Positions 1,494 through 27,235 of a stretch of 64,000 nt of DNA are shown here, piece after piece. This stretch comes from Eledone cirrhosa (lineage: Eukaryota): assembly GCA_964016885.1 (NCBI GenBank), contig OZ024741.1, positions 239,568,001 through 239,632,000 of the forward strand. The letters are read 5' to 3'. The translations under genes and the position numbers were made by a program. The notes beneath the pieces are model-generated. The model did no database searches and had not been told where the DNA came from. It saw only the letters and a list, made by a program, of their open reading frames with translations. Within the stretch, counting starts at the first letter, position 1, and every line of letters begins with the position of its first letter.

Positions 1494-1495
<2 letters not shown>

Positions 1496-1528
<33 letters not shown>
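1496..1528. repeat. (TA)n microsatellite
   Basis: Directly visible. Confidence 0.95.
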
Positions 1529-1531
<3 letters not shown>

Positions 1532-2982: not shown

Positions 2983-3409
2983 CTGAAACAAGTAAATCAA
3001 CTCAACTTACTACACAGTTCATATAAATACCATATATTTATAGGCTGAAATTAGTAATCAATCTTTTGTCTACTATGTTCACTACATTAAGATATAAAAT
3101 CACAATTATTAAAGAAATGTTTGACCATCCTTAATGTCCTTAGATATAATAATTTCAGTGATCGAAAGATTAGAGGTTGACTGAGAATAAAAGTCAGTTA
3201 TGTAAATGATAATAGGCCCAGAGTGTAATATATATACTCTGGTAAAGTAGAAACTATTAAACATTACATCTGTGTAGAAACATATATTCACTTATAATAA
3301 AATTTATAAAGAAAGATTGATAGAAATGATCTTATATTGTTTCACAGTTGTTGAAATTAGAAATTATGAAAATTGAATTCAAATAAATAGATAAATAAAA
3401 TTGTTTTAC

Positions 3410-4280: not shown

Positions 4281-6659
4281 CTTTGTAGATTTTTGAAGAG
4301 ATCGATTCATTGTTGATATCTTCCAGTCTTCAGGATAGTAATGGCTTCTAGACTGACTATATCTGTCTGATATCTCTCCTCGATTACCTGACATCACAGA
4401 TACACTGTTGTTACCTTGATAGATCAACTGTCTCATCTCATTACGACATTGGTATGCCTGTTTCTCTTCTGTTGTTCTAGCAGAGTTATTTCTCACATTG
4501 TTACATCTCACAATACACAATGTTATAGAAACCACAATAGCTATAGATACTATCACAGCTGCTACTACAACGATAATCAACAATGTTGCATCTATTGTGT
4601 TATCAGTTGGTACATGGACAGCTGTGAACATTGGTGATGTCTTGTTACTAACAGTCAGTGTTAAAGAGACACTAGTTGTTGCTGACAGAACTGGAGTACC
4701 ACTGTCTTTCACAACAAACTCCAGTTGATATGATCCAGCATCATTTTGGTAAACTGTGCGAGAGTAAGATAAGACACCGGTGAATGAGTCCAGTTTAAAT
4801 AACTGTCTCTCATTACCTGAGAGGATTTCATACCTGAGAAAAGCATTCATGTGACTGTCTATATCAGAGGCTTTCAGAAGTGTGATGTCATTCTTACTTT
4901 GTGGATGATAGTGGACATCAAGAGTGAAAGGGTCAACACTAGGAAATGTAAAATATGGAACATTATCATTTTTATCTAATACTTCCACTTCAACATTCAC
5001 TGTGTTATTTAGAGATGGTGTTCCATTGTCTTTAACTAAAACCTCAAAGTCATAGAAATCTCTGTGTTCTCTGTCTAAAGATTGGTTTGTTGAAATAAAG
5101 CCAGAGTTGATAATCTGGAATGGTAGATGATATTGGTGTTTATTTCTCAGATAATAACTTAATTCACCTCCCTTACCAACATCTGGGTCTGTAGCATTGA
5201 TAAAACCAATAGGGAAATTAGCTTTGTCATTCTCATAGGTAAGGAACTTGAATGTATCTTTGGTAAAGTGTGGTTTTACATCATTCACATCTAACACTTG
5301 TATTGAGAGATCTTTATCAGTTTTCAGAGAAGGTAATCCTTTATCTTGACAGGAGACAGTAAAGTGATAATGTTCCTGTGTCTCTCTGTCTACTGCTTTC
5401 TTTAGAACTATTTTATATTCCTTAGATCCCATTGACTGTAGTTTGAATGTATCATGTTTAATATCACAGCTGACCTCTCCATTGTGTCCAACATCATTAT
5501 CAGTGACCATCACATAAGCAATGAAACTACCAACTTTGATATCTTCCAGAATGGTAGCTGTGTTGTGATTCTCTGTAGAAATATAGTTGACATCAATATT
5601 TGGAGGATTGTTGTGTTGGTTGATAATATTTACAATAACAGTTGCTATGGAGCTAAGAGGAGGACTGCCATTATCTCTGGCTTCTATGAATAATTTAAAA
5701 GATTCTTCCATATCAATTTCTGAAGACTTAGCTAAATATAACTTTCCTGTATTTTCATCTAAATCAAAGTATCTTTTCATTTTCTCTGCAGTTTTCCTTG
5801 CAAAATAGAAAGATATTTTACCATTCCTGCCAATATCTAAATCATTGGCAGATAATGTCACTACTGGAATATTCTTTTTATGGTCATGTTGTATAGAGAC
5901 ATTGTAGATACTTTTGGAAAATTGTGGTTTATTATCATTTTCATCTTTTACAGATATTTTAACATTTAAAATACTTTGTTTTGGTGGAGTTCCTCCATCT
6001 TTAGCAATGACTTCAATATTGTAACTGTCTTTCTTTTCTCGGTCTAATTTATCTTCTAAAATAATACCTATTGTTGATATTTCATCAGTTTCTTTGGAAA
6101 CTGATAAAGAAAAATTTCCATTATGCTTTTTTAATTCATATGTAATTAAGCTGTTCTCATACCCCACATCTTTGTCAATGGCGCTGGGAATGGGTCTCTT
6201 CAAACCCTTACCATCTCCATCCCTGAAATACACAGTGATTTCTTTCTCAGGAAACTCAGGTTGGTGGTCATTGATGTCTTCTATTATGACTTTAATTTTT
6301 AATATCTTCATAAATGTCTTGGATTTGTGAACAGCAACTTTAATTATTTCAAAACATTCTTTCTCATAACTACACACAGACTCAGCATCCAATGTCTGTA
6401 CAGTGTACAGTTTACCAGTTTTCGTCACATTAAACAATTGTTCTCCTTTTTGTTGTAGTTGACTAAATGTAATTAAATCCTTATTCTTTAAGGAGTTATC
6501 TGATGTCTGTAAGTCAGTAGCAATGTCCCCTACATAAGTATAGGGAATACTCTCTTCTTTAACATGGTATGTGATATGTTCACTTAAATAACAGTGGAAT
6601 AAAGTCAGTAAAATACACAGAAATAACATCTCTGCTCTTGATGTTAATACAGAGTCCAT
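4281..6659 (-). CDS. Pcdh: Protocadherin gene A, large coding exon (signal peptide, EC1-EC6, TM, proximal cytoplasmic tail)
   Basis: 805-aa ORF with six cadherin repeats (DINDHQPEF, LDRE, DENDNKP, DVNDVKP, DKNDN), the EC1 C-X5-C loop (CSYEKEC) and a TM helix LLIIVVVAAVIVSIAIVVSITLCIV. Similarity among paralogues stops exactly at KSTK|GTAAA (phase-0 donor, exon end 4281). Acceptor TTTCAG| upstream at 6685. Confidence 0.96.
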
Positions 6660-6840
6660 GGAAAATGATTGCTTAAATATTCAATCTGAAACAAACAAAA
6701 ATTATTTATCATACCTCAATTAACTGTTTGTAAAATAAATATATTCAAAAATTATTTATCATATTGATGAGCTATTGTCATATTTGCATAGAGAGAAATT
6801 GTATTATACCTCAAGTAACTGTTTGTAAAATAAATATATT

Positions 6841-6930
6841 TGTTTCTACGTTTGGCACAAGGCCAGCAATTACCCAGTGCATTACTGGTACTTTATTTTA
6901 TCGACCCCGTAAGGATGAAAGGCAAAGTTA
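6841..6930 (-). mobile_element. 5'-truncated Nin/Deu-domain SINE (duplicated copy at ~13999-14088)
   Basis: 3' half of the SINE flanked by TSD AAAATAAATATATT. Confidence 0.8.
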
Positions 6931-8951
6931 AAAATAAATATATTAATCAATGAAAGTGATTGTACAAAATTTCAATATTTGTATTCTTATTTATGGATAT
7001 AAACAAGTCACAATTTTGTGGTCTTTCTATCATGACATTCGCAGTACATATGGTGTGTAGTTTCAGATAAGAAGTCTCTTGTAAACATAACATGTGTAAT
7101 TCCTAAGGTAGATTACTTTGTGTCATAAATATAAGATAGCCCTATTATGAGACAGGTGATAGCTACATCACATCAGATTTAGATGAATTTCTGCAGATTG
7201 TTTAATTAAACTTCAGTGTAGCTTATTTATATTTTATATAGGAATTGAAAATTGGTTGTAATCCAGAAAATTGTTAAAACGTAAACAACTCAGAGGGAAA
7301 CAAGTAGGAAGTTATGAATTATCTCCCTTATATATACTACAAAGTACACCTAAATTATGTTTAACAGAACAAAAATCTACAGGAATATCTAAGTCACTAT
7401 CTTTCCATTGATATTGATGTATTACTATTAATAAAGTTAGATTTCTATTTTAAACTGAAAAAAAAATATTCTAAATTGTGAACATTTATATTCAATAAAA
7501 TTATAATCTTAACATCTTGGATATAATAATAATAATTAAATTATTGTGTACAGTGCTCAGGTGCACTACAACTCATCAAGGAATTCTTTAAAACAATATC
7601 AATTACCACTTGACTCCTCTATTTACTACATAAACAGCTTCCTTATGTGTCAAAAACCACTTTTATATAACAGAGGTTCATTAGATTAAAATCTAACAAT
7701 TAGCTGAAACATTTTAATTTTACATATAAAATCCAAATATATTTTTTGCATAAATATCAAACTAATTTTAAATCATACCACCTAGTGCTAGATATATTTA
7801 CTGAGAATAAATAACTAGATAATAAGCATTTGTTTTCTATAGTTGAAAATCGTTGTAAAAGGAGGGAAAAATCTAAAACAAATTCTAAAACAAATTTTTT
7901 TATGACTTATTCTGAAGTAGAAATAAAATATTTGGTACCATCTTTTTAAGTCATACTGTTATTTAGTCATGTAGATGAATATTTTTTACATAAAACCTAC
8001 CAGATTGATGTTATTTAACCCGATGTAAGATCCTATCTAGCAGACATTATCAAAAGCATTCCAGTCAAGACCACAACCTCTATTTTTCCAAATATAGTTC
8101 CTTTGTGTTACAAAAGGAAATATATGACATCTTACAGTAGTATCGAAATAGATAACAGGCCATAATTAATATATCTATATTCTTTACAAAGATTTAAGAC
8201 TACAGATTCCTCATTTTTTACTGAATTAATGAATATTAATTTTTGTAATGTAATTGGTAATTATTCAAATATACTTCTGACATGTTACCATAAAAGTATA
8301 AAGATACATATTTTGTTGAAACAAATCATACACAAATATATGTAAGGCAAATTTGTAAATTTTAACAAGTAAAAGTAATTTATATAAAAGAAACTATTAA
8401 CACTAATTTTCACATGATATTATAGCAATCAGTAGACATATACAAAAAATAATGATTTACACACGTTCATAGATTTTACATATACACAGTTATTTCAGAT
8501 ATGAAAATACTAATATTTTATAACAAATTTTCTTATTTATAAAGAATATTTAGGTAAAACCTATATTATTGAATGTATTTCAATGATATTCTAGTTCAAT
8601 ATTTAGTATGTAATAAGACCATACAATGTCAGACTGAATAATTTAGTAAAAATATATAATGATGAGCTATGTTAAAATATGATAAACAAGATAAATATAG
8701 TAAACAAATCAAAGATGACAGCAAATATTTTCAGAAGTATGTTATATTAAACTATAATCCAACATATATTCCTCTCTCTCACTGTTTCTTACAAAATAGT
8801 TGATAGCCATGTTGGTAAAGAAGACATTCAATGAGAACTAGCACAGATCTAATATGGCCACCATTACAATATATTTTGATGTTATAATATACTATGTATG
8901 AAGTGATTATTTTACATGACTTGATAAATAATAAGCAATGATAAAACTTAC

Positions 8952-9450
8952 ATTCATTGTGTAAAATCCTTTGTTATAAACTGTGAGTTGGTCCCAATGT
9001 TCTGTTAATGGTTGTCTGTGTCACTGCTGCTATGGTGTGACAATGGCTTCATGTTGATGGAATAGTGTTGGTAGTGAGTCAGTGGGAACCAGCAGTTCCT
9101 CTCAGTCTTCTGTGTATGTGTGATGTTTACTGAGTGTGAGTGTGAGTGTGTGTGTGAGAGAGAGAGGGGTGGGGGAGGGTGATGCTTACTTCAGCCTCAC
9201 TCAGACTAGATGTGTTTCCCCTCACAGAAAAGAGGGAGAGAGAGAGAAGACACAATATCAGCTCCACTAACAGTCAGCCAAATGTCTATATAATAATATG
9301 TCTGGTGTAGAGAGACTGACATAGAAATACTTAGAAGAGAGAGGTTATATTAACAAAATATGGCTGATGTTGTTAATGTGTAATATGTAATATAAATACA
9401 AAATTAATAATAATAGTTAGTGTGTGTCTGGCTTAATTATAAACTAACTT
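8952..9450 (-). promoter_or_regulatory. Promoter and non-coding first exon (~8952-9268) of gene A
   Basis: Same cassette; |GTAAGT donor at 8952 pairs with the acceptor at 6685. Confidence 0.7.
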
Positions 9451-9563
9451 TGCCACAGAAGATATATTTCAGAAAATTTATAGATGTTATATTACCAATA
9501 TCAAATTTATTTTCTGAAATAACAAAATTTACAATATCATATATTTATTATTTATTAGCAGGG

Positions 9564-9754
9564 TGGTGGATTATCTGTCATTAGAGTGTGAGACAAATGC
9601 TTAGCAGTATTTAGTCTGACTCTATACAGTCTGAGTTGAAATCATGCCTTTCATCTTCTGAGGTTGATAAAATAAAGTAACAATCAAGTACCATCGTCAA
9701 TATACTCAAATTGTCCTTCACCTAAATTACTGATTTTGTGCCGGAATCATTATC
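9564..9754 (+). mobile_element. Old Nin/Deu-domain SINE (duplicated copy at ~16671-16863)
   Basis: Degenerate match (GAGTTGAAATC, GCCTTTCATCTTCTGAGGTTGATAAAATAAAGTA); TSD TATTAGCAGGG. Confidence 0.72.
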
Positions 9755-9965
9755 TATTAGCAGGGAAAACAGTCATTAAATGATGATGATAATTCAATCC
9801 ATATTTTCAAATTTAAATTGTATTTCCTGAAGATTTATTACTATTCTAGACACTTTATATTAAATTCCCCATAATTATATCATTTAACTAACATATTTCT
9901 TTTGTTTTAAATATTGTGTTACTGTTGAAGGTGATATTTCTGTTGTGTTAACTTCTCAGTCTGAC

Positions 9966-10084
9966 TTAACTAGCAACAACATCTGGTGTTGAAGGTAACT
10001 GTCTCTCTGGAGGTTTCACATATCTGTCTTGGTAATGGTCTCTCTCATTGTTGCTTGACACATCAGGTGGGACACCATAGATAC
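9966..10084 (-). CDS. Pcdh: Gene B terminal coding exon
   Basis: TTTCAG| acceptor, 119 nt to TAA. Confidence 0.88.
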
Positions 10085-10281
10085 CTGAAAGAAATAATTC
10101 AATTCAACTTACCACATAGTTCACATAGACAATAGATATCTTCTGACATTAATAATCCATCTCTTGTCCAAAATGAAAATTATTAAAAAGGTTCTTTTTG
10201 ACCATCCCTAAAATTCTTCAAAATTATAAACATAAATTATTATAATGATAATAATAAACATGGAAAATGAAATGTTTTTAC

Positions 10282-10432
10282 CTGACATTGCCGGTATTTC
10301 TTCATACTGTCTACTTGACCTTTCACTCCAGCACTGTCCACTACTCTTACGACTAGTCAGTGTATCAGTGGGATAGTTAGACGATGGTCTGTTGTCTCCA
10401 TAAGATGTCACCTCTATAGGCTGACTGTATTT
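10282..10432 (-). CDS. Pcdh: Gene B cytoplasmic exon (151 nt)
   Basis: CAGCAG| acceptor, |GTAAAA donor, paralogous to 3410-3560. Confidence 0.9.
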
Positions 10433-10739
10433 CTGCTGTAAAGTTAGTTAAAACAGATTGTAAAGGTATTTATAATATTGGATATGAAATGTATGCAATA
10501 TCTAGGTAAAAATCAGTACATGTTTACTGTTGAAATATGGTACAACCATCTACAAAAATATCAATTGTCTTTTACAAATGTTCCATTGATTTCACTACAT
10601 TTTTGTCAAATTTCTGCAGGACAATTCTCAAGGGGATTTCAAACTTCCAACTTAAATCCTTCCTTCCAATCCTACCACACAAAATGGATTCATTATACAT
10701 TAGTCAAAGTCTTATGTATTGCAAATAATTATTTCATAG

Positions 10740-10908
10740 CACACTGTAAGTGTGGTTGGTGTTAGCAAGGGCATTCAGCCATAGAAAACCAGCCAGAAAC
10801 ACCCCTATATGAGCGAAACACTGTCACCCAACAACTTGCCTCAAAATAGGATCCACCTAACCCATGCTAGTGTGGAAGATATACGTTAATCGATGATGAT
10901 GATGATGA
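10740..10908 (+). mobile_element. RTE LINE/SINE 3'-tail fragment (duplicated at ~17858-18026)
   Basis: GGTTGGTGTTAGCAAGGGCAT...CCCATGCTAGTGTGGAAGATATACGTTAATC(GAT)n matches the LINE 3' end. Confidence 0.75.
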
Positions 10909-11488
10909 CTTTTAATGAATAAAGGTTCACATGGTCTTTTGACCTCACCGTTAATGGTGATAATATAAATTTATATTGTGCATGAGTTTGCAGTGCAAGG
11001 TAGGAATGACAAGAGGTACAGAATTGAGGAGATTTGTCTTCTGGATAACAGGTTAGAAGAATCTGAATAGTACAAAGTAGAGAGGTTCCACAATTTTAGA
11101 CAACAACCTATTGAGAAATAAATTGCATTCTGCAATGTATGAAATGTATGCAATATCTAGATTTAAATTAGTCATGTTAACTGTTGAAATATGGTACAAC
11201 TATCACCAAAAATATCAAATGTCTTTTACAAAAATGGTGGTAGCCTTGTTAAACATTTATTTACCAACAAATAGCTTACAATTAGCAAACAGCAGTAATT
11301 CATGGATTAACTCACATTTAAAACAAACAAAATAGAATATTTATTTCTATGTCACTATTATTTCTAACAAGACATATTCTATTAAAAACTCTGGAGAAAT
11401 AAATATTAGCCTAAATTGGTAATTTAAATAGTAACAAAGAGAATAAACATTATTTAACAGCAGATAAAAGATATTGAATAGACTTTAC

Positions 11489-13867
11489 CTTTGTAGATTT
11501 TTGAAGAGATCTGTTCATTGTTGATGGTTTCCAGTCTTCAGGATAGTTATGGCTTCTAGACTGACTATATCTGTCTGATATCTCTCCTTGATTACCTGAC
11601 ATCACAGATACACTGTTGTTACCTTGATAGATCAACTGTCTCATCTCATTACGACATTGGTATGCCTGTTTCTCTTCTGTTGTTCTAGCCGAGTTATTTC
11701 TCACATTGTTACATCTCACAATACACAATGTTATAGAAACCACAATAGCTATAGATACTATCACAGCTGCTACTACAATGATAATCAACAATGTTGCATC
11801 TATTGTGTTATCAGTTGGTACATGGACAGCTGTGAACATTGGTGATGTCTTGTTACTAACAGTCAATGTTAAAGAGACACTAGTTGTTGCTGACAGAACT
11901 GGAGTACCACTGTCTTTCACAACAAACTCCAGTTGATATGATCCAGCATCATTTTGGTAAACTGTACGAGAGTAAGATAAGACACCAGTGAATGAGTCCA
12001 GTTTAAATAATTGTTTCTCATTACCTGAAAGGATTTCATACCTGAGAAAGGCATTCATGTGACTGTCTATATCAGAGGCTTTCAGAAGTGTGATGTCATT
12101 CTTACTTTGTGGATGATAGTGGACATCAAGAGTGAAAGGGTCAACACTAGGAAATGTAAAATATGGAGCATTATCATTTTTATCTAATACTTCCACTTCA
12201 ACATTCACTGTGTTATTTAGAGATGGTGTTCCATTGTCTTTGACTAAAACCTCAAAGTCATAGAAATCTCTGTGTTCCCTGTCTAAAGATTGGTTTGTTG
12301 AAATAAAACCAGAGTTGATAATCTGGAATGGTAGACGATATTGGTGTTTATTTCTCAGATAATAACTTAATTCACCTCCCTTACCAACATCTGGGTCTGT
12401 AGCATTGATAAAACCAATAGGGAAATTAGCTTTGTCATTCTCATAGGTAAGGAACTTGAATGTATCTTTGGTAAAATGTGGTTTTACATCATTTACATCT
12501 AACACTTGTATTGAGAGATCTTTATCAGTTTTCAGAGAAGGTAATCCTTTATCTTGACAGGAGAGAGTGAAGTGATAATGTTCCTGTGTCTCTCTGTCTA
12601 CTGCTTTCTTTAGAACTATTTTATATTCCTTAGATCCCATTGACTGTAGTTTGAATGTATCATGTTTGATATTACAGCTGACCTCTCCATTGTGTCCAAC
12701 ATCATTGTCAGTGACCATCACATAAGCAATGAAACTACCAACTTTGATATCTTCCAGAATGGTAGCTGTGTTGTGATTCTGTGTAGAAATATAGTTGACA
12801 TCAATATTTAGAGGATTGTTGTGTTGGTTGATAACATTAACAATAACAGTTGCTATAGAACTAAGAGGCGGACTGCCATTATCTCTGGCTTCTATGTATA
12901 ATTTAAAAGCTACTTCTGACTTAATTTCTGATGATTTGGCTAAATATAATTTTCCGGTATTTTCATCTAAATCAAAGAATCTTTTCATTTTTTCTGAAGT
13001 TGTCCTTGCAAAATAGTAAGATATTTTACCATTCCTACCAATATCTAAATCTTTGGCAAATAATGTCACTACTGGAATATTCTTTTTATGTTTATGTTCT
13101 AAGGAAACATTGTAGATACTTTTGGAAAATTCTGGTTTATTATCATTTTCATCTTCTACAGATATTTTAACATTTAAAATACTTTGTTTTGGTGGAGTTC
13201 CTCCATCTTTAGCAATGACGTCAATATTGTAATTGTCTTTGTTTTCTCTGTCTAATTTATTTTCTAAAATAATTTCTAATGTTGATATTCCACCAGCTTC
13301 CTTAGAAACACTTAGTGAAAATTGTCCATCATCTTTCAGTTCATATTTAATAAATCTGTTTTGATACCCAACATCTTTATCCACAGCATTGGGTATTGCT
13401 CTCTTGGTGTTTTTACCATCAGTTTCAGAAAACTGAATATTGACTTGTTCAGTTGGAAACTCAGGTTGGTGGTCATTGATGTCTTCTATTATGACTTTAA
13501 TTTTTAATATCTTCATAAATGTCTTGGATTTGTGAACAGCAACTTTAATTATTTCAAAACATTCTTTCTCATAACTACACACAGACTCAGCATCCAATGT
13601 CTGAACAGTGTACAGTTTACCTGTTTTCGTCACATTAAACAATTGTTCTCCTTTTTGTTGTAGTTGACTGAATGTAATTAAATCCTTATTCTTTAAGAAG
13701 GAGCTATCTGATGTCTGTAAGTCAGTAGCAATGTCCCCTACATAAGTATAGGGAATACTCTCTTCTTTAACATGGTATTTGATATGTTCACTTAAATAAC
13801 AGTGGAATAAAGTCAGTAAAATACACAGAAATAACATCTCTGCTCTTGATGTCAATACAGAGTCCAT
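11489..13867 (-). CDS. Pcdh: Protocadherin gene B, large coding exon
   Basis: 805-aa ORF with the same domain layout; donor after KSTK at 11489; acceptor at 13893. Confidence 0.96.
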
Positions 13868-16062
13868 GGAAAATTACTGTTTAAATATTCAATCTGAAAC
13901 AAACAAAAATTATTTATCATATTGATGAGGTATTGTCATATTTGCATAGAGAGAAATTGTATTATACCTCAATTAACTGTTTGTAAAATAAATATATTTG
14001 TTTCTACGTTTGGCACAAGGCCAGCAATTACCCAGTGCATTACTGGTACTTTATTTTATCGACCCCGTAAGGATGAAAGGCAAAGTTAAAGATAAATATA
14101 TTAATCAATGAAAGTGATTGTACAAAATTTCAATATTTGTATTCTTATTTATGGATATAAACAAGTCACAATTTTGTGGTCTTTCTATCATGACATTCGC
14201 AGTACATATGGTGTATAGTTTTAGATAAGAAGTCTCTTGTAAACATAACGTGTGTAATTCCTAAGGTAGATTACTTTATTGTGTCATAAATATAAGATAG
14301 CCATATTCTGAGCCAGGTGATAGCTACATCACATCAGATTTAGATGAATTTATGCAGATTGTTTAATTAAACTACAGCGTAGCTTATTTATATTTTATAT
14401 AGGAATTGAAAATTGGTTGTAATCCAGAAAATTGTTAAAATGTAAACAACTCAGAGGGAAACAAGTAGGAAGTTATGAATTATCTCCCTTATATATACTA
14501 CAAAGTACACCTAAATTATGTTTAACAAAACAAAAATCTACAGGAATATCTTAGTCACTATCTTTCCATTGATATTGATGTATTACTATTAATAACATTA
14601 GATTTCTATTTTAAACTGAAAAAAAAAATATTCTAAATTGTGAACATTTATATTCAATAAAATTATAATCTTAATATCTTGGATATCTCCTTGAATAGGA
14701 ATACTTTAAAACAATATCAATTATCACTTGACTCCTCTATTTACTACATAAACAGCTTCCTTATGTGTCAAAAACCACTTTTATATAACAGCTTCATTAG
14801 ATTAAAATCTAACAATTAGCTGAAACATTTTAATTTTACATATAAAATCCCAATATATTTTTTGCATAAATAAACTAATTTTAAATCATACCATCTAGTG
14901 CTAGATATATTTACTGAAAATAAATAATTAGATAATAAGCATTTGTTTTCTATAGTTGAAAATCGATGTAAAAATAGGAAAAAATCTAAAACAAATTCTA
15001 AAACAAATTTTTTTATGACTTATTCTGAAGTAGAAATAAAATATTTGGTACCATCTTTTTAAGTCATACTGTTATTTAGTCATGTAGATGAATATTTTTT
15101 ACATAAAACCTACCAGATTGATGTTATTTAACCCGATGTAAGATCCTATCTAGCAGACATTATCAAAAGCATTCCAGTCAAGACCACAACCTCTATTTTT
15201 CCAAATATAGTTCCTTTGTGTTACAAAAGGAAATATATGACATCTTACAGTAGTATCGAAATAGATAACAGGCCATAATTAATATATCTATATTCTTTAC
15301 AAAGATTTAAGACTACAGATTCCTCATTTTTTTACTGAATTAATGAATATTAATTTTTGTAATGTAATTGGTAATTATTCAAATATACTTCTGACATGTT
15401 ACCATAAAAATATAAAGATACATATTTTGTTGAAACAAATCATACACAAATATATGTAAGGCAAATTTGTAAATTTTAACAAGTAATTTATATAAAAAAA
15501 CTATTAACACTAATGTTCACATGATATTATAGCAATCAGTAGACATATACAAAAAATAATGATTTACACACATTCATAGATTTTACATATACACAGTTAT
15601 TTCAGATATGAAAATACTAATATTTTATAACAAATTTTCTTATCTATCAAGAATATTTAGGTAAAACCTATATTATTGAATGTATTTCAATAATATTCTA
15701 GTTCAATATTTAGTATGTAATAAGACCATACAATGTCAGACTGAATAATTTAGTAAAAATATATAATGATGAGTTATGTTAAAATATGATAAACAAGATA
15801 AATATAGTAAACAAATCAAAGATGACAGCAAATATTTTCAGAAGTATGTTATATAAAACTATAATTCAACATATATTCCTCTCTCTCACTGTTTCTTACA
15901 AAATACTTGATAGCCATGTTGGTAAAGAAGACATTCAATGAGAACTAACACAGATCTAATATGGCCACCATTACAATGTTATATTTTCATGTTATAATAC
16001 AGCTATATATGAAGTCATTATTTTACATGACTTGATAAATAATAAGCAATGATAAAACTTAC

Positions 16063-16560
16063 ATTCATTGTGTAAAATCCTTTGTTATAAACTGAGTTGG
16101 TCCCAATGTTCTGTTGTTAATGGTTGTCTGTGTCACTGCTGCTATGGTGTGACAATGGCTTCATGTTGATGGAATAGTGTTGGTAGTGAGTCAGTGGGAA
16201 CCAGCAGTTCCTCTCAGTCTTCTGTGTGTGTGATGTTTACTGAGTGTGAGTGTGTGTGTGTGTGAGAGAGAGAGAGGTGGGGGAGGGTGATGCTTACTTC
16301 AGCCTCACTCAGACTAGATGTGTTTCCCCTCACAGAAAAGAGGGAGAGAGAGAGAAGACACAATATCAGCTCCACTAACAGTCAGCCAAATGTCTATATA
16401 ATAATATGTCTGGTGTAGAGAGACTGACATAGAAATACTTAGAAGAGAGAGGTTATATTAACAAAATATGGCTGATGTTGTTAATGTGTAATATGTAATA
16501 TAAATACAAAATTAATAATAATAGTTAGTGTGTGTCTGGCTTAATTATAAACTAACTTTG
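16063..16560 (-). promoter_or_regulatory. Promoter and non-coding first exon (~16063-16376) of gene B
   Basis: Same cassette, nearly identical to that of gene A. Confidence 0.7.
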
Positions 16561-17073
16561 CCACAGAAGATATATTTCAGAAAATTTATAGATGTTATAT
16601 TACCAATATCAAATTTATTTTCTGAAATAACAAAATTTACAATATCATATATTTATTATTTATTAGCAGGGTGGTGGATTATCTGTCATTAGAGTGTGAG
16701 ACAAATGCTTAGCAGTATTTAGTCTGACTCTATACAGTCTGAGTTGAAATCATGCCTTTCATCTTCTGAGGTTGATAAAATAAAGTAACAATCAAGTACC
16801 ATCGTCAATATACTCAAATTGCCCTTCACCTAAATTACTGATTTTGTGCCGGAATCATTATCTATTAGCAGAGAAAACAGTCATTAAATGATGATGATAA
16901 TTCAATCCATATTTTCAAATTTAAATTGTATTTCCTGAAGATTTATTACTATTCTAGACACTTTATATTAAATTCCCCATAATTATATCATTTAACTAAC
17001 ATATTTCTGTTGTTTTAAATATTGTGTTACTGTTGAAGGTGATATTTCTGTTGTGTTACTTTCTCAGTCTGAC

Positions 17074-17192
17074 TTAACTGGCAACAACATCTGGTGTTGA
17101 AGGTAACTGTCTCTCTGGAGGTTTCACATATCTGTCTTGGTAATGGTCTCTCTCATTGTTGCTTGACACATCAGGTGGGACACCATAGATAC
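17074..17192 (-). CDS. Pcdh: Gene C terminal coding exon
   Basis: TTTCAG| acceptor, 119 nt to TAA. Confidence 0.88.
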
Positions 17193-17399
17193 CTGAAAGA
17201 TATAATTCAATTCAACTTACCACATAGTTCACATAGACAATAGATATCTTCTGACATTAATAATCCATCTCTTATCCAGTCTGATATAAAATGACAATTA
17301 TTAAAAAGGTTCTTTTTGACCATCCCTAAAATTCTTCAAAATTATAAACATAAATTATTATAATGATAATAATAAACATGGAAAATGAAATGTTTTTAC

Positions 17400-17550
17400 C
17401 TGACATTGCCGGTATTTCTTCATACTGCCTACTTGACCTTTCACTCCAGCACTGTCCACTACTCTTACGACTAGTCAGTGTATCAGTGGGATAGTTAGAC
17501 GATGGTCTGTTGTCTCCATAAGATGTCACCTCTATAGGCTGACTGTATTT
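17400..17550 (-). CDS. Pcdh: Gene C cytoplasmic exon (151 nt)
   Basis: Canonical AG/GT boundaries; paralogous sequence. Confidence 0.9.
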
Positions 17551-18583
17551 CTGCTGTAAAGTTAGTTAAAACAGATTGTAAAGGTATTTATAATATTGGA
17601 TATGAAATGTATGCAATATCTAGGTAAAAATCAGTACATGTTAACTGTTGAAATATGGTACAACCATCTACAAAAATATCAATTGTCTTTTACAAATATT
17701 CTAATGATTCCACTACATTATTGTCAAATTTCTGCAGGACAATTCACAAGGGGATTTCAAACTTCCAACTTAAATCCTTCCTTCCAATCCTACCACACAA
17801 AATGGATTCATTATACATTAGTCAAAGTCTTATGTATTGCAAATAATTATTTCATAGCACACTGTAAGTGTGGTTGGTGTTAGCAAGGGCATCCAGCCAT
17901 AGAAAACCAGCCAGAAACACCCCTATATGAGCGAAACACTGTCACCCGACAACTTGCCTCAAAATAGGATCCACCTAAACCATGCTAGTGTGGAAGATAT
18001 ACGCTAATCGATGATGATGATGATGACTTTTAATGAATAAAGGTTCACATGGTCTTTTGACCTCACCGTTAATGGTGATAATATAAATTTATATTGTGCA
18101 TGAGTTTGCAGTGCAAGGTAGGAATGACAAGAGGTACAGAATTAAGGAGATGTGTCTTCTGGATAACAGGTTAGAAGAATCTGAATAGTACAAAGTAGGG
18201 AGGTTCCACAATTTTAGACAACAACCTATTGAGAAATAAATTGCATACTGCAATGTAATATGTAATATATATATGAATCTTCTAGTGGTATCCTTCTTAA
18301 ACATTCTTTTACCAACAAATAGCTTACAATTAGCAAACAGCAGTAAATCTTGGATTAACACACATTTAAAACATAACCCGTCTAAACCCATGCTAGCATG
18401 GAAGATAGACGTTAAACGAATATATACAATATTTATTTCTATATCATGACAATTATTTTTAACAAGACATATTCTTTTAAAAACTCTGGAGACATAAAAA
18501 TTTGCCTAAATTGGTAATTTAAATAGTAACTAAGAGAATAAACATTATTTAACAGCAGATAAAAGATATTGAATAGACTTTAC

Positions 18584-20935
18584 CTTTGTAGATTTCTGAA
18601 GAGATCTGTTTATTGTTGATGTCTTCCAGTCTTCAGGATAGTAATGGCTTCTAGACTGACTGTATCTGTCTGATATCTCTCCTCGATTACCTGACATCAC
18701 AGATACACTGTTGTTACCTTGATAGATCAACTGTCTCATCTCATTACGACATTGGTATGCCTGTTTCTCTTCTGTTGTTCTAGCAGAGTTATTTCTTACA
18801 TTGTTACATCTCACAATACACAATGTTATAGAAACCACAATAGCTATAGATACTATCACAGCTGCTACTACAATGATAATCAACAATGTTGCATCTATTG
18901 TGTTATCAGTTGATACATGGACAGCTGTGAACATTGGTGATGTCTTGTTACTAACAGTCAGTGTTAAAGAGACACTAGTTGTTGCTGACAGAACTGGAGT
19001 ACCACTGTCTTTCACAACAAACTCCAGTTGATATGATCCGGCATCATTTTGGTAAACTGTGCGAGAGTAAGATAAGACACCTGTGAATGAGTCCAGTTTA
19101 AATAATTGTTTCTCATTACCTGAAAGGATTTCATACCTGAGAAAAGCATTCATGTGACTGTCTATATCAGAGGCTTTCAGAAGTGTGATGTCATTCTTAC
19201 TTTGTGGATGATAGTGGACATCAAGAGTGAAAGGGTCAACACTAGGAAATGTAAAATATGGAACATTATCATTTTTATCTAATACTTCCACTTCAACATT
19301 CACTGTGTTATTTAGAGATGGTGTTCCATTGTCTTTGACAAAAACCTCAAAGTCATAGAAATCTCTGTGTTCTCTGTCTAAAGACTGGTTTGTTGAAATA
19401 AAGCCAGAGTTGATAATCTGGAATGGTAGACGATATTGGTGTTTATTTCTCAGATGATAACTTAATTCACCTCCCTTACCAACATCTGGGTCTGTGGCAT
19501 TGATAAAACCAATAGGGAAATTAGCTTTGTCATTCTCATAGGTAAGGAACTTGAATGTATCTTTGGTAAAGTGTGGTTTTACATCATTCACATCTAACAC
19601 TTGTATTGAGAGATCTTTATCAGTTTTCAGAGAAGGTAATCCTTTATCTTGACAGGAGACAGTAAAGTGATAATGTTCCTGTGTCTCTCTGTCTACTGCT
19701 TTCTTTAGAACTATTTTATATTCTTTAGATCCCATTGACTGTAGTTTGAATGTATCATGTTTAATATCACAGCTGACCTCTCCATTGTGTCCAACATCAT
19801 TGTCAGTGACCATCACATAAGCAATGAAACTACCAACTTTGATATCTTCCAGAATGGTAGCTGTGTTGTGATTCTCTGTAGAAATATAGTTGACATCAAT
19901 ATTTGGAGGATTGTTGTGTTGGTTGATAACATTTACCATAACAGTTGCTATGGAGCTAAGAGGAGGACTGCCATTATCTCTGGCTTTTATGTATAATTTA
20001 AAAGACTCTTCCATATCAATATTTTCAGATTTAGCTAAATATAATTTTCCTGTATTTTCATCTAAATCAAAGTACCTTTTCATTTTTTCTGAAGATGTCA
20101 TTGCAAAATAGAAAGATATTTTACCATTCCTACCAATATCTAAATCATTGGCAGATAATGTCACTACTGGAATATTCTTTTTATGTTTATGGTTTATAGA
20201 GACAGTGTAGATACTTTGAGAGAATTTTGGTATATTATCATTTTCATCTTCTACAGATATTTTAACATTTAAAATACTTTGTTTTGGTGGAGTTCCTCCA
20301 TCTTTAGCGATGACTTCAATATTGTAACTGTCTTTCTTTTCTCTGTCTAATTTCCTTTCGAGAATAATTCTTAATGTTGATATTCCACCAGCTTCCTTGG
20401 AAACACTTAATGAAAATTGTTTTTCATCATCTTTCAGTTCATATTTAATTAATCTGTTTTGATATCCCACATCTTTGTCCACAGCATTGGGTATTGATAG
20501 TTTTGATCCTTTGCTGTCTCTCTCTGAAAACTGAATATTGACTTGTTCAGTTGGAAACTCAGGTTGATGGTCATTGATGTCTTCTATTATGACTTTAATT
20601 TTTAATATCTTCATAAATGTCTTGGATTTGTGAACAGCAACTTTAACTATTTCATAACATTCTTTCTCATAACTACACACAGACTCAGCATCTAATGTCT
20701 GAACAGTGTACAGTTTACCTGTTTTTGTCACATTGAACAATTGTTCTCCCTTTTGTTGTAGTTGACTAAATGTAATTAAATCCTTATTCTTTAAGAAGGA
20801 GCTATCTGATGTCTGTAACTCAGTAGCAATGTCCCCGACATAAGTATAGGGATTTCTCTCTTCTTTAACATGGTATGTGATATGTTCACTTAGATAACAG
20901 TGGAAGAAAGTCAGTAAAATACACAGAAATAACAT
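18584..20935 (-). CDS. Pcdh: Protocadherin gene C, large coding exon
   Basis: 796-aa ORF; donor after KSTK at 18584; acceptor at 20992. Confidence 0.96.
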
Positions 20936-21819
20936 CTCTGCTCTTGATGTTAATACAGAGTCTAGGGAAAATTACAGCTTCAAATATTCTATCTGAAACA
21001 AGAAAAATGTAATATATTAACCGAGTCTAGTACATTAAGTTTTGTCTTTCATGAAATTCTCATGAATTAAACTTAACATCATGTACTTAAGAAATATCTG
21101 CTGTATCTTAAATATATTCTGGAAATACAGAGTGACAATTGCACTGAACATCCCAGTATGTACACTTTTCTCAAGCAGTGAAGGTTTTGCTGTCTGGGCC
21201 ACATCCAACACATGATGAGCTGGCATCTGGCAGAAGGTTCATTGATCAAACCCAACCTATTCTATAATGAGGTCTGCATGAAAAACAGAGACACTCAATA
21301 TTAATTCTAAGATAGCCTTTCAGATGACCAGAACCCTGAACAGGTAACTGAAGATATAAATAAAGTTGCTGCACATTACAGAAGAAAAGTGAACATGAAG
21401 AAAATACAACAGCAGTATCAAGAAATAAATTAACACACATAGATATGACATCTACATCAGAAACTGCCATTGCTGCATTGGACTTTTCAACTACAAGCTA
21501 CATAGCTTTTTAATATCCCCTAAAAGACTATATGAATTTTGAACCTATATCAAGGATTTCTATTTCTTTTTTTTAAGTAAAGAATATTTTAAGTATTTCT
21601 ACTTTAAATGAGATATTAAAATCGGGGTTCTATCTAATTGGTATCAAATTTTAATGGGAAATATTAAGTTGGTAAACTAAAATATAGATATTACTTAGAA
21701 GGACGTTTTGAGTTATCTCTCTTGAACAAGAAAAATTCCAATGTTACACAATTTTCAACAAAACTGAAACATCTTATAAAGGTAATGTAGAAATCAACAT
21801 TATAAAGATATTAACCAAT

Positions 21820-22155: not shown

Positions 22156-23786
22156 CCAATAATAACAATAATGCTGTGATGGTAGTCACCTTCTGTGTAT
22201 AATAGGACGGAATTACAGATTGAACAGTATTGAACAAATTAAACAGTATTGACAAGATATCTATTTACTAACTGCTATTGATATATTCAGGTATATATTC
22301 TGTACTGTATAGTATTTAATATAATTAGAATTACCATTTTAATAACTATTCTCAGAAATAACATAATATTTTGTCAAACCTTGTAGTTCAAATAAAGTTA
22401 TAATTTTAACATCTTCGATGTCACCTTAAAAACAAATTATTTAGACTGCATTCACTACATGATTCTTCTATTTGTTATATCAACAGTTTGAAGCCTTTTT
22501 CATTTTGTTTATGTAAAGTATTGATCGAATTATAATTAAAATATGAATCATGCTTTTCTTAAAAGGGGAAGTATTAATCTGAATACATTAAATTTAACAC
22601 TATAACAGAATATATATATTTTGTTTAAATATCAAACTAATTTTTTATAAAGTCACCTAATTAACAGATTTCCATTTAACTTTCCTACAGTTGAGAATAA
22701 AATTAAGTAAAAAGAAAAATCAGAAACACATTGTTAATGAATTTCTTTTTCTAATTACTTTTAAAATAGTCAGGTGAATATTTGTTACATAAGATGTTCT
22801 ACGTTGTTGTGATTTAAACCTATGTAATCTACTCCACACCAGACCTTTTTTCACAAGTATTTCAGCCACAACTCTCCATAATAAGCAGCAAGTTGCTTCA
22901 TGTTACAAAAGAAAGTATGTGACAGATTGAATATTTCTGTATTAATAGCTAGCAAGCCACAATTAGTACATGGATATTGTTCATACAGACCATGGCTATA
23001 GATACTTCATATCTCATCTTCCTAAATGTTACAAAACTTATAATACGGAATTATAGAAATATCAGGTATATATTTGGCCTGTTATATAAAATATATTGAG
23101 AATTGTAAATATAAAACACTAGACCTTTGATGAGTTGTAGTGCACATGAGCACTGTACACAATAATTTCATTATTATTATTTAAGAAAATATAATTTCAA
23201 ATTTTCAAATCCTAGAAATCAAATTAATAAAACAATAAAACATATTTTCTATAGTCATCAATAGACATTTACATAGAAATAAAGCTTTACACACACATTT
23301 TATATATATATATGCCTGTGTGTGTGAGTGTGTGTGTGTATACATATACAGAATTATGGTAGATAATATTATAAATTATTTCATTGTCTGATAATATTTA
23401 CACAAAACCTACACTACTGTATATATGTAAATGGTATTCTTGTTCAATATTTAGTATGTACTAAGACCATATAATGTTCAACTGAATGATTCAGTTAAAA
23501 TATATAATAATGTGAAAATAAAATAAAGATAAATATAGTTATAATGAAGGATGTCATAAATATTTTAAGAAGTATGTTATATAAAACTACAATTCAACAT
23601 ATTTTCCTTTCTCTCACTGTTTCTTACAAAATACTTGATAGCCATGTTGGTAAAGAAGACATTCAATGAGAACTAACACAGATCTAATATGGCCACCATT
23701 ACATTATATTTTGATGTTATAATATACTATGTATGAAGTTATTATTTTACATGACTGGATAAATAATATAAAATAATAAAACTTAC

Positions 23787-24290
23787 ATTCATTGTGTAAG
23801 ATCCTTTGTTATATTCTTCTGATTTGGTCCCAGTGTTCTGTTGTTAATGGTTGTCTGTGCCACTGCTGCTATGGTGTGACAATGGCTTCATGTTGATGGA
23901 ATAGTGTTGGTAGTGAGTCAGTGGGAACCAGCAGTTCCTCTCAGTATTCTCTGTATGTGTGATGTTTACTGAGTGTGAGTGTGTGTGAGAGAGAGAGGTG
24001 GGGGAGGTGATGCTTACACAAGCTTCACTCAGACTAGATGTGTTTCCCCACACAGAGAAGAGGGAGAGAGAGAGAAGACACTATATCAGCTCCACTAACA
24101 GTCAGCTATAATATGTCTATATAATACTAACATGTCTGATGTAGAGACTGACACAGAAATACTTAGAAGAGAGAGGTTATATTAACAAAATATGGCTGAT
24201 GTTACTATGTGTGTGTAATATAGCATAGTGTGTGTAATATTGACGATAATACTTAGTTTGTGTCTGACCTAATTCAAAACTAACTTATCC
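23787..24290 (-). promoter_or_regulatory. Promoter and non-coding first exon (~23787-24096) of gene C
   Basis: Same cassette with |GTAAGT donor. Confidence 0.7.
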
Positions 24291-24694
24291 ATTGAGGATA
24301 TATTTTAATATTTTATTTATGATATATAATCTAACTAAAATATATCTTCTCGGGTGTTAATAATTGTTTCTACTTTTGGCACAAGTGTTAATAATGACAG
24401 TATTTATGTATTTATATCATGATTAAATAAATTTTCTTAATTTTTAATTGTAATTCACCATGAAAGTCTCAAACTATTTCATCCAATATTTCCATTACAA
24501 TTGATTTAGCTAACTACAGTGTTATAAATGGATGTTCGATATCTGAAGCTGTTATGTTATTCTCATTTGTACAAATCATATCAATATAAAATATTTCCCT
24601 TAACATAATCAATTAATTAATATAATTCTGTCATTTTAAATATTATGTGAATGTTGAAGGTGATATTTCTGTTGTGTTAACTTCTCAGTCTGAC

Positions 24695-24813
24695 TTAACT
24701 TACAACAACATCTGGTGTTGAAGGTAACTGTCTCTCTGGAGGTTTCACATATCTGTCTTGGTAATGGTCTCTCTCATTGTTGCTTGACACATCAGGTGGG
24801 ACACCATAGATTC
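24695..24813 (-). CDS. Pcdh: Gene D terminal coding exon (ends DVVVS*)
   Basis: TTTCAG| acceptor, 119 nt to TAA; separated from the previous exon by a TE-expanded 2.8-kb intron. Confidence 0.87.
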
Positions 24814-25214
24814 CTGAAACAAGTACATCAACTCAACTTACTACACATTTCATATAAATGCCATATATTTACTGACTGAAATTAGTAATCAATCTCTTGT
24901 CTACTATGTTCATGAGGTTAAGACATGAAATAACAATTATTAAAGAAATTATGTTTGACCATCTCTAATGTCCTTAGATATAATAATTTCAATGATCCAA
25001 TGATTAGAGGTTGACTGAGAATAAAAGTCTGTTCTGTTAATGATAATAGACCCAGGGTGTGATATATATATATATCCTTGTAAAGTAGAAACTATTAGAC
25101 ATTATATGAGTAGCAAGACACATTCACATATAATGAAATTTATAAAGAAAGATTGATATAAATAATATTAGATTGTTTCATAATTGTTGAAATTAGAAAT
25201 TATGAAAATGTAAT

Positions 25215-27217
25215 TCTACTCATAATATAATAAAGTGCGGGATTGTGTCCTAAATATATTTTTTTATCCCGTTAGTAAAATAAGTTGGATTAAAATAAGT
25301 TGGATTAAATATTAAATATTACATAATTTATATACTAAATTTTGTAGCTGTTGATTCATATTATCATCATCACCGTTTTACGTCCGTTCTTCCATGCTAG
25401 CATGGGTTAGACGGGTTGTCCTGTTGTGGGCAGTGTCTGGTCAGCTGACCATGCCTTGCTCATACAGGAACTGATTTGGCTTGATTTCTACAGCTGGATG
25501 CCCTTCCTAACACCAACCTCATTTACAGTGAGTGCTCGGTGCTTTTTTGCCGTGGCGCCTCCACGACCACTTTGCAGTGGGAGGAGATGGGGTCATATTG
25601 TCTATATGCTTCAGCTTCGGCTTGTACCTGTGGGAAGTCGGGTCTTCTGTATTACTGCGTGACGCCAGAGGTGCAATTGGGTAAGGTCGGCTTTTATCAC
25701 CTCATCCCAGGTCTTCTTCGGTCTCCCCACTCGGCGGCTTCCATCGACTTCTAGTGCTCTGCACCTTTTTATGCAGCTGTCATCCTTTATATTCATCACA
25801 TGTCCATACCAACACAACCTCCTCTCCTGCACACAGCATTTGATTCCTCTTATGCTTTGTCGTTCGCGTATATTACTATTACACATCCATCGGAGCATGC
25901 AAGCTTCATTTCTTTCTAATCTACACAAGTCTTCTACAGACAGCGCGCCCAGGTTTCACTACCATGTAACATTACTGTTCGTATACATGCATCATACAGT
26001 CTGCCTTTCATTTTGAGGGGAAAGCCTTTTGCAGCTAGCAGTGGCTCCCTGAACTTCTTCCATCCTATTCTTACCCTAGTTATTGTACTTTCCGAACACC
26101 CACCTCTGCTGCTAATTCGGTCACCTAGGTAGCAAAAGCTGTCTACTGTTTCTACAGAGTCCTCTCAGAGTTTGGTGGTGCTTGTTTGCTGTGGCCATTT
26201 GCTGCTTGTTGTCCCAGCGCAACTGTTACATGTGAAGCCTACATTCTTAGCTAAGCTTCCTGAGATCCCACTACATCTCTTGTGTACCCATTGTTTGCAT
26301 TTGGGGCAGAGGATGGAGTTCCTACCTACACCTTTCCTACATACTGAGCAAGGCCATTTCCCTGAGGGGATCTGGGTTCTGTTTTCTCGTCTACTTACAA
26401 GGACCTTAGTCTTTGTCAGGTTGACTTTGAGACCTTTTCTTTCTAGTCCCTGCTTCCATGTTTGGAATTTTTTCTCTAGTTCCACCATAGATTCAGCTAT
26501 AAGTGTGAGATCATCCGCATATAGGAGTTCCCATGAGCATCCGGTCTTAAACTCCTCCTGTACAGCCTGCAAACCTATAATGAACAAGAGAAGGCTAAGA
26601 ACAGAGCTCTGGTGGACACCGACCTGTATCTAAATTCCTCGCTATAGTCATTGCTAACCCTACCTTTGCTGACTGCTCCCCTATACATGGCTTGTACAGC
26701 TTTCACAAGCCATTCATCTACTCCTAGTTTTCTAAGAGCCCACCAGATTATAGCACGGGGGACTCTGTGAAAGGCTTTTTCCAGATCAACGAATGCAGGT
26801 AGATTAAACATAAATATTCTTATATATAATGATTGCTTATTTTAAGATTCACTTTAAAATTTTCAAATATCAATACTTCTGGTTATGATATAACGCACTA
26901 TATTATATCGCTTATATAAACGTTCATATATTTGCATCGTTATATAATGTTTATATATCTGTCGCTAATTTTCTCCTTTTTCGTTTTCATTACATTTCAC
27001 CGTAATGCAGTTTATATAAAATATATTTTTTAAATGTATCGTGGATCACTTTACTGATTGCAGAAGAGAGTAAGTGTCTCTTCAATTTCTGTGCATATTA
27101 TCAATTACGATTTTATTTGATGTATCATATCTAAATGCATGTATATTTGCATATAATATCAATATGCACACTATACATGCTAGCAGAAAACCAACCAAAG
27201 GGTGGTTTTTCTGCTAG
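25215..27217 (+). mobile_element. Putative non-autonomous Helitron-like element interrupted by the RTE fragment
   Basis: Absent from the paralogous intron of gene A. Starts TCTACTCATAATATAATAAAG and ends in a hairpin (CTAGCAGAAAACC...GGTTTTTCTGCTAG) with terminal CTAG followed by T; no TSD. Confidence 0.55.
25363..26802 (-). mobile_element. 5'-truncated, decayed RTE LINE in intron 3 of gene D
   Basis: AFVDLEKAF, LLYADD, WPCSVCRKGVGRNSILCPKCKQWVHKRC, RRLCWYGHV, GRPKKTW, (GAT)n tail; same family as 40440-43942. Confidence 0.92.
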
Positions 27218-27235
27218 TGAATTTAATAACAGACA

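What the first reader, a model, noticed from the sequence alone, without database searches (positions are those of the whole stretch)
6661..20992. Gene B is a young A/C chimera, yet its EC2-EC3 has already diverged far more than its non-coding flanks
Seen: B's promoter, intron 1 and N-terminus (MDSVLTS, EESIPY, FEIIKV) match A, while its EC2 type, intron 2 (VKSIQYLLSAVK read-through), tail exons and 3' flank match C. This is the C-[A5'/C3']-A product expected from unequal crossover inside the large exon near the EC1/EC2 boundary. The duplicated non-coding DNA is nearly identical, but B and C differ at roughly 14 EC2 positions by my manual count (FSETDGKNTKRA vs FSERDSKGSKLS) and more in EC3. 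Inference: strong selection or conversion from other donors quickly gives a new duplicate a unique specificity.
Basis: partly seen in the sequence, partly recalled or inferred. Interest (0 to 1): 0.7.

Follow-up and report, generated by a model that had tools for sequence, protein, structure and literature searches.

The report
Old protocadherin cores in young flanks
In an octopus array of neuron-adhesion (protocadherin) genes, the DNA between two neighbouring genes was recently copied while the part thought to set binding specificity is much older and is reshuffled between genes, a pattern already known from the separately evolved vertebrate protocadherin clusters.

Summary
The window is an octopod protocadherin tandem array (8 genes, minus strand). 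The observation mostly holds. A 4.8-kb tract (B tail to A EC1) differs from the next one (C tail to B EC1) by only 1.8% in non-coding DNA (72/4069). B and C differ at 14 EC2 and 20 EC3 residues.

The interpretation does not hold as stated. B's 2.3-kb core is not a young copy of C:
- Synonymous divergence in EC2-3 (~21%) exceeds non-synonymous (~9%).
- Proximal intron 2 differs 7.9% plus 7 indels.
- In EC4-tail, B-C ranks 22nd of 28 pairs.
- C's nearest EC2 is E's.
- Both loop types, B-like (ETDGKGTKRS) and C-like (ER..K..KLS), occur in other Octopus species and in Argonauta, so they are ancient.
- No positively selected site class was detected.

Best reading: EC2-EC3 are old cassettes between homogenised blocks (EC1; EC4-tail), and the young event is the exchange of the spacer. 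This matches regional gene conversion in vertebrate clustered protocadherins, here apparently convergent. An import of the core from a donor outside the window, or capture of two divergent alleles, is not excluded.

The parts
6344..11139 (-). Young tract, copy 1: B distal intron 2, B tail exons 3-4, intergenic DNA, A putative promoter and exon 1, intron 1, signal peptide and EC1
   Evidence: 72/4069 non-coding substitutions and 17 indel events vs copy 2; sliding alignment
13549..18257 (-). Young tract, copy 2: C distal intron 2, C tail exons, B putative promoter and exon 1, intron 1, signal peptide and EC1
   Evidence: longest exact run with copy 1 is 546 nt
13455..13548 (-). Junction interval at B's EC1/EC2 boundary (A-like upstream, non-A downstream)
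   Evidence: last A=B-exclusive site 13549, first A/B difference in EC2 at 13454
11140..13454 (-). Old core of gene B (EC2 to proximal intron 2), not a recent copy of C or A
13142..13471 (-). B EC2; carries the T-type loop ETDGKNTKRA
   Evidence: 14 aa plus 1 indel from C, 14 aa from E; ETDGKGTKRS in 7 of 45 distinct units from four other species
12818..13141 (-). B EC3
   Evidence: 20 aa from C, 16 from A, 15 from E; pS 0.20 to C
11489..12817 (-). B EC4-EC6, transmembrane and cytoplasmic part: block homogenised across all eight genes
   Evidence: 20-37 nt differences in 1329 among 28 pairs; window genes form one clade against other species
11138..11232 (-). B-only 95-bp copy of the distal intron-2 segment, at the edge of the young tract
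   Evidence: 89.6% to B 10483-10578 and 89.9% to C 17601-17699
9966..10435 (-). B tail exons 3 (10435-10282) and 4 (10084-9966), predicted
   Evidence: splice motifs; translation matches tails of annotated octopod homologues
11489..13893 (-). Gene B large exon (six cadherin repeats, TM)
   Evidence: Pfam Cadherin_2 plus 5 Cadherin stretches
18584..20992 (-). Gene C large exon; EC2 20569-20237 carries the R-type loop ERDSKGSKLS shared with F (E: ERDGKGSKLS)
4281..6685 (-). Gene A large exon; EC2 of the A/G type

Best explanation
B is an older gene, an earlier sister of C, whose flanks were recently made alike. Each gene of the array has conserved blocks that exchange sequence often between paralogs: leader exon, EC1, EC4-to-cytoplasmic, tail exons. 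Between these lie EC2-EC3 segments that escape homogenisation and carry discrete loop variants older than the split of Octopus and Argonauta. One exchange of about 4.8 kb made the B-to-A spacer a near copy of the C-to-B spacer (or the reverse), with ends in EC1 and in intron 2. It was either a long conversion tract or an expansion and contraction by two unequal crossovers. Short tracts keep reshuffling EC2/EC3 pieces, as between C and E/F.

Shown: the two junctions, the age contrast, the ancient loop variants and the species-specific homogenisation of EC4-6.
Inferred: the recombination route; that EC2-3 sets homophilic specificity as in vertebrate clustered protocadherins; and that selection acts mainly by rejecting homogenisation of EC2-3 rather than by fixing new mutations.
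For: (1) Age of the core. B-C pS is 0.22 (EC2) and 0.20 (EC3) against pN 0.079 and 0.099. There are 29 synonymous changes vs 2.4 expected at spacer age. Proximal intron 2 is 22/279 vs spacer 72/4069, p=6e-8. The B-only 95-bp copy is about 10% from both possible sources.
(2) No B-C signal in EC4-cyto: rank 22 of 28, no exclusive site.
(3) Ancient variants. ETDGKGTKRS is in 7 of 45 distinct non-window EC2-3 units (O. sinensis 2, O. vulgaris 2, O. bimaculoides 1, A. hians 2). The R-type ER..K..KLS is in 9 of 45, and exactly ERDSKGSKLS in 2 Argonauta units. Two consecutive units in one O. sinensis model (P0136) differ at the same positions 17, 22 and 24.
(4) Concerted evolution. EC4 and EC5-6 differ 2.0% within the window vs 5.9-9.8% to other species and group by species (100/97, 98/95). 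EC2 differs 23% within vs 26-30% between, and a window-only EC2 clade is rejected (AU p=0.004).
(5) Non-coding exchange between neighbours occurs elsewhere: D-E share about 180 intronic nt with one mismatch inside an otherwise more diverged intron.
(6) Every gene is a mosaic, with different nearest neighbours per module.
Against: One window cannot tell 'young flanks copied around an old core' from 'old core moved into young flanks'. A 4.8-kb tract is long for gene conversion (own knowledge). EC2-3 four-fold divergence (13/59) exceeds even proximal intron 2 (22/279, p=0.003), so extra exchange inside EC2-3 is needed, and no in-window donor matches B (26 private nucleotide states). Of 16 B residues private within the window only 8 are seen in other species, so part of B's sequence is lineage-specific change. 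GC enrichment in the homogenised blocks is weak and inconsistent. Only 1 of 21 pairwise conversion runs involving C is strong, and none involving B survives correction. Protein-only comparison cannot exclude convergence at the loop positions.
Confidence: 0.62

Rival explanations
1. B arose recently by unequal crossover between C and A, and its whole 2.3-kb core was then replaced from a B/C-family donor outside the window.
For: The gene order C-[A5'/C-like 3']-A and the EC1/EC2 junction fit. One O. vulgaris unit differs from its nearest O. sinensis unit at 16 EC2 but 1 EC3 position, as a swap would give, while another pair differs at only 3.
Against: It needs an extra event and an unseen donor that is also C-like in proximal intron 2. 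No in-window donor exists.
Confidence: 0.19
2. B and C cores were two highly divergent alleles of one locus (balanced polymorphism). A real unequal crossover in EC1 between the two haplotypes placed both in tandem.
For: It needs only one crossover. The spacer divergence of 1.8% is near published octopod heterozygosity of 0.95-1.44% (passages). B and C are each other's nearest in intron 2.
Against: Alleles would have to differ at 34 residues plus 8% and 7 indels in intron 2. C's EC2 is closer to paralog E than to B. The divergence step at 11139 is abrupt.
Confidence: 0.11
3. Assembly artefact: two haplotypes joined in EC1, giving a false duplication.
For: Spacer divergence is of allelic size. 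Reads could not be examined.
Against: The join would rest on under 100 bp of identity. The window has no N and resolves eight near-identical blocks. It still requires alleles 34 residues apart.
Confidence: 0.05
4. Strong positive selection fixed new point mutations in EC2-3 of a young duplicate.
For: 34 amino-acid differences lie in variable segments; 8 of 16 B-private residues are not seen in 25 rows from other species.
Against: Synonymous sites diverged more than non-synonymous ones. Poisson p=1e-9 even at a threefold faster rate. M0 omega is 0.19-0.23 and M2a is not favoured (own implementation, 7 sequences, low power, recombination ignored). The loop variants are ancient.
Confidence: 0.03

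Closest known systems
Octopod clustered protocadherin arrays (O. bimaculoides chr14, O. sinensis chr14, A. fangsiao chr13; PMC9068888, PMC9795677, passages seen)
   Same: Head-to-tail, multi-exon, whole-gene duplicates with one large ectodomain exon. Best hits over EC2-3 are O. bimaculoides (81%) and O. sinensis (76%) proteins. PMC9068888 already suggests duplication plus homogenisation by gene conversion.
   Different: The passages seen give no domain-level analysis, no junction mapping and no trans-species EC2 loop variants. Window EC4 differs at least 5.4% from the four species sampled, so this is another octopod (inference).
Regional gene conversion in vertebrate clustered protocadherins (fugu PMC1852091, Xenopus PMC4978886, passages seen; Noonan 2004 seen only as cited there)
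   Same: Highest synonymous divergence in EC2/EC3, homogenised C-terminal ectodomains, lineage-specific homogenisation, sharp boundary near EC4.
   Different: Independent expansion. Each octopod gene has its own tail exons, so exchange also covers tails, leader exon, promoter and a 4.8-kb intergenic tract. The GC3 rise is small (about 29% vs 22%) against 54-69% vs 38-45% in fugu.
Antiparallel EC1-EC4 protocadherin trans-dimer (PMC5001838, passages seen; PDB 5K8R, 5IU9 among hits)
   Same: Conserved EC1/EC4 and variable EC2/EC3 match the published affinity/specificity split.
   Different: Homophilic binding and the interface were not established for these octopod proteins in the passages seen.

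Membership tests
Octopod clustered protocadherins | Six cadherin repeats, TM and short tail, ectodomain in one large exon | tested here: met
   Pfam Cadherin_2 plus five Cadherin stretches in A, B, C; exon model
Octopod clustered protocadherins | Head-to-tail array of complete genes without shared constant exons | tested here: met
   8 genes on the minus strand, each with its own exons 3-4
Octopod clustered protocadherins | Closest relatives are octopod protocadherins | tested here: met
   top 12 hits all Octopus or Argonauta
Octopod clustered protocadherins | Neural expression | not testable with these tools
   no RNA data
Regional concerted evolution (vertebrate cPcdh type) | Synonymous divergence high in EC2/EC3, low in EC4-6 | tested here: met
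   mean dS over 21 pairs: EC2 0.45, EC3 0.36, EC1 0.09, EC4-6 0.055-0.070
Regional concerted evolution (vertebrate cPcdh type) | Homogenised domains group by species, variable domains do not | tested here: met
   EC4 and EC5-6 window clade 100/97 and 98/95; EC2 AU p=0.004
Regional concerted evolution (vertebrate cPcdh type) | Raised GC3 in converted regions | tested here: inconclusive
   GC3 about 29-30% vs 21-24%, but four-fold GC is inconsistent (EC5 18.8%, cytoplasmic 9.1%)
Young single-crossover chimeric duplicate | 5' part matches one parent at the age of the event | tested here: met
   A-B promoter, intron 1, EC1
Young single-crossover chimeric duplicate | Whole 3' part matches the other parent at the same age | tested here: not met
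   core 13454-11140 is far more diverged at neutral sites
Positive selection after duplication | dN/dS above 1 overall or in a site class | tested here: not met
   pN/pS about 0.4 for B-C; M2a vs M1a p=0.44 and 0.95, low power
Vertebrate-type homophilic recognition code | Isoform-specific antiparallel EC1-4 trans binding set by EC2/EC3 | not testable with these tools
   needs binding assays or solved structures

The most novel reading that the evidence does not exclude
Octopod protocadherin EC2-EC3 segments are a balanced, MHC-like pool of ancient cassettes that segregate as alleles within species. New genes arise when unequal crossover in the conserved EC1 captures two divergent alleles side by side, so a duplicate has its own binding specificity from birth. 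B and C would be such a captured pair.
Probability: 0.11. Interest if true: 0.8.

Novelty: new variant of a known kind. Interest (0 to 1): 0.42.

Why it matters
It suggests that octopods and vertebrates, whose protocadherin arrays expanded independently, converged on the same evolutionary layout: homogenised scaffold domains around a protected, recombining EC2-EC3 region. That is indirect support for an untested idea, that octopod protocadherins use EC2/EC3 as an identity code, and it names discrete loop variants to test.

It is also a caution. Whole-gene distances have been used to date a 'recent burst' of octopod protocadherins at 8-14 Ma (PMC9795677, passage seen). If EC4-to-tail is homogenised, such distances understate gene age. 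Exchange of a whole spacer also moves promoters between genes, so expression pattern and specificity can be recombined independently.

Tried and rejected
- Complex prediction of a B EC1-4 homodimer, without alignment, gave no answer (score 0.00, controls not run). It is not used as evidence.
- The search for shorter database proteins matching B's EC2-3 found 12 hits, none above 61%, so no independent copy of B or C from this species was found. The near-length search peaked at 81%.
- In-window donor for B: none. B's longest runs with any paralog are not significant after 21 tests.
- Site-model test for positive selection: not significant in EC2, EC3 or EC4-6 (p=0.07); own code, fixed relative branch lengths, recombination ignored.
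- GC-bias signature: inconclusive.
- The direction of the spacer exchange could not be fixed. The 95-bp B segment fits either an old local insertion or the remnant of B's original intron end.
- Albertin 2015 (PMC4795812) is not held; nothing of it was seen. Wang and Ragsdale 2017 and Noonan 2004 were seen only as citations. No supplements were read; those of the octopus genome papers may hold domain-level analyses that would lower the novelty.
- No Octopus-Argonauta divergence date was found, so none is given.
- In one search the exon-3 row for gene H was mis-assigned; it was corrected and H's tail is not used.
- Collections of viral and metagenome contigs were closed, and reads and other eukaryote assemblies were unavailable, so copy number and read support stay unchecked.
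Full report
What the window is. Self-comparison and ORF listing show eight head-to-tail genes on the minus strand, here A to H. A, B and C each match Pfam Cadherin_2 plus five Cadherin stretches. A search with B's EC2-EC3 returned Octopus and Argonauta protocadherins as the top 12 hits, best 81%. EC4 differs by at least 5.4% from all four species sampled, so the source is probably another octopod (inference). Each gene has a predicted leader exon, one large exon and two tail exons of its own; no RNA data were available.

Checking the observation. Non-coding DNA from A intron 1 to B intron 2 (6686-11139) differs from 13894-18257 at 72 of 4069 sites (1.77%) with 17 indel events. A and B are the closest pair in signal peptide and EC1, with 5 exclusive shared sites. 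The switch away from A lies between 13548 and 13455. B and C differ at 14 EC2 residues plus one codon indel, and at 20 EC3 residues. The contrast is far beyond chance: 13 of 59 four-fold sites differ, against 72 of 4069 (p=9e-11).

Where the reading fails. A young crossover product should match C along its whole 3' part. It does not.
- The near-identical tract stops at 11139/18257. The next 349 bp of intron 2 differ at 22 of 279 sites with 7 indels (p=6e-8 against the spacer).
- That stretch holds a B-only 95-bp copy of the distal intron, about 90% identical to both B's and C's distal segment.
- In EC4 to cytoplasmic tail B and C differ at 31 of 1329 nt, rank 22 of 28 pairs, with no exclusive shared site.
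- In EC2, B is 14 residues from C and from E alike, while C is 6 from E. C shares a 57-nt identical run with F (p=0.0005 uncorrected). In EC3, B is closer to E and A than to C.
So the young thing is a 4.8-kb spacer with two ends, and B's 2.3-kb core is older.

Selection on new mutations. B-C pS is 0.22 and 0.20 in EC2 and EC3, and pN is 0.079 and 0.099. At the spacer's age about 2.4 synonymous changes are expected; 29 are seen. My own codon-model test on seven genes gave omega 0.19-0.23 and no support for a positively selected class (p=0.44, 0.95). It has low power and ignores recombination. At the mutation rate given for Hapalochlaena (2.4e-9 per site per generation; PMC7656900 passage) the spacer split is roughly 3.7 million generations old; the rate may not apply to this species.

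The variants are ancient. I extracted 61 EC2-3 units (7 from the window, the rest from named cephalopod proteins) and dropped 9 identical repeats within species, mostly isoform or duplicate records, not verified. Eleven of the 38 Octopus proteins tried gave no full unit. Among the 45 distinct non-window units, ETDGKGTKRS occurs in 7 (O. sinensis 2, O. vulgaris 2, O. bimaculoides 1, A. hians 2) and the R-type ER..K..KLS in 9, with C's exact ERDSKGSKLS in 2 Argonauta units. B's ETDGKNTKRA is the T-type plus two changes. Two consecutive units of one O. sinensis model show the same dimorphism at the same three positions. Of 35 B/C differences in EC2-3, both states occur in other species at 19. Against this, only 8 of B's 16 window-private residues were seen elsewhere. 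The comparison is protein-only, so convergence is not excluded.

Concerted evolution. Mean dS over 21 pairs is 0.45 (EC2) and 0.36 (EC3), against 0.09 (EC1) and 0.055-0.070 (EC4-6). EC4 and EC5-6 differ 2.0% within the window and 5.9-9.8% from other species, and the window genes form one clade (100/97, 98/95; bootstraps rough; 1 and 3 short rows left out). EC2 differs 23% within and 26-30% between species, and a window-only EC2 clade is rejected (AU p=0.004). Every gene is a mosaic: A's EC2 is nearest G but its intron 2 nearest D/E, and F's EC2 start is C-type but its EC3 is H-type. D and E share about 180 intronic bases with one mismatch inside a more diverged intron, so non-coding exchange between neighbours occurs. 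Among five O. vulgaris units, the nearest O. sinensis unit differed at 3, 12, 17, 45 and 47 positions. The 17 split as 16 in EC2 and 1 in EC3, as a tract swap would give; orthology was not established. No two distinct units within a species were closer than 15 residues, which hints at selection against identical EC2-3, but the sample is incomplete.

Mechanism. Most likely (0.62) B is an earlier sister of C, and a long conversion or two opposed unequal crossovers made one spacer a copy of the other. On this reading A may carry B's promoter. Rivals: a young duplication with later import of the whole core (0.19), capture of two divergent alleles (0.11), false duplication (0.05; published octopod heterozygosity 0.08-1.44%, passages), and fast selection on new mutations (0.03). 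All but the last agree that the EC2-3 difference was inherited, not newly made. The role of EC2-3 in specificity is inferred from vertebrate work (PMC5001838 passages; PDB relatives) and is untested here.

Comparison with what is known. Regional conversion that spares EC2/EC3 is described for fugu and Xenopus clusters (PMC1852091, PMC4978886; passages). Homogenisation by conversion has been suggested for octopod arrays without domain detail in the passages seen (PMC6339937, PMC9068888). PMC10084454 (passage) notes the similar large exon. Five searches listed no paper whose title or abstract start pointed to domain-resolved conversion, junction mapping or trans-species EC2 variants in cephalopods. 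Albertin 2015 was not held, subscription journals are mostly missing, and no supplements were read. The GC3 signature seen in fugu is weak here.

Verdict. It is a known process in a convergent setting, with one variant trait: exchange covers whole spacers with promoter and tail. Interest 0.42; the allele-capture reading would merit 0.8 at probability about 0.11.

Noticed in passing
window 9278, 16386, 24106, 34181, 45029, 52268, 60681, 2300 (minus strand): A 24-nt motif about 320 bp upstream of the leader-exon donor is conserved in all 8 putative promoters. It could be an analogue of the vertebrate conserved sequence element; that resemblance is recalled and untested.
   Followed up: no
window leader exons ending 8952, 16063, 23787, 33858, 44710, 51955, 60376: Two short upstream ORFs are conserved in the predicted 5' leader of 7 of 7 genes examined, one crossing the intron-1 junction. 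The leader is itself homogenised, with exact runs over 100 nt between paralogs.
   Followed up: partly
window 6696-6745 and 49751-49840: A carries a 50-bp insertion relative to B just before the large-exon acceptor. F shares the last ~60 bp of intron 1 with A/B at 91-97% although the rest of its intron is C/G-type.
   Followed up: partly
window about 27866-28040 vs 35310-35490: D and E share about 180 intronic nt with one mismatch while their EC2-3 differ at 54 residues.
   Followed up: yes
window 6489-6497: A lacks one EC1 codon exactly as D does, inside the A/B young tract, suggesting a micro-conversion after the spacer event.
   Followed up: partly
window 34698-34592 and 53505-53355: E exon 4 has a 12-nt in-frame deletion and G exon 3 a 3-nt deletion. 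Exon 3 begins at a tandem acceptor that fits the Q+/Q- isoforms seen in homologues.
   Followed up: no
window 25360-27300, 40700-43950: Retroelement remnants: 26168-26629 matches RVT_1 and PHD and is similar to 42390-43549. Three ORFs at 40723-42266 had no Pfam hit.
   Followed up: partly
window 859-3380 vs 22584-25216: A's tail with the next gene's promoter (exon-1 donor near 1991) resembles D's tail with C's promoter at 83%, an older spacer pair.
   Followed up: no
P0001, P0136, P0147, P0158, P0161: Several public Octopus protein models fuse neighbouring protocadherin genes or skip most of the large exon, so published gene counts for this array may be unreliable.
   Followed up: partly
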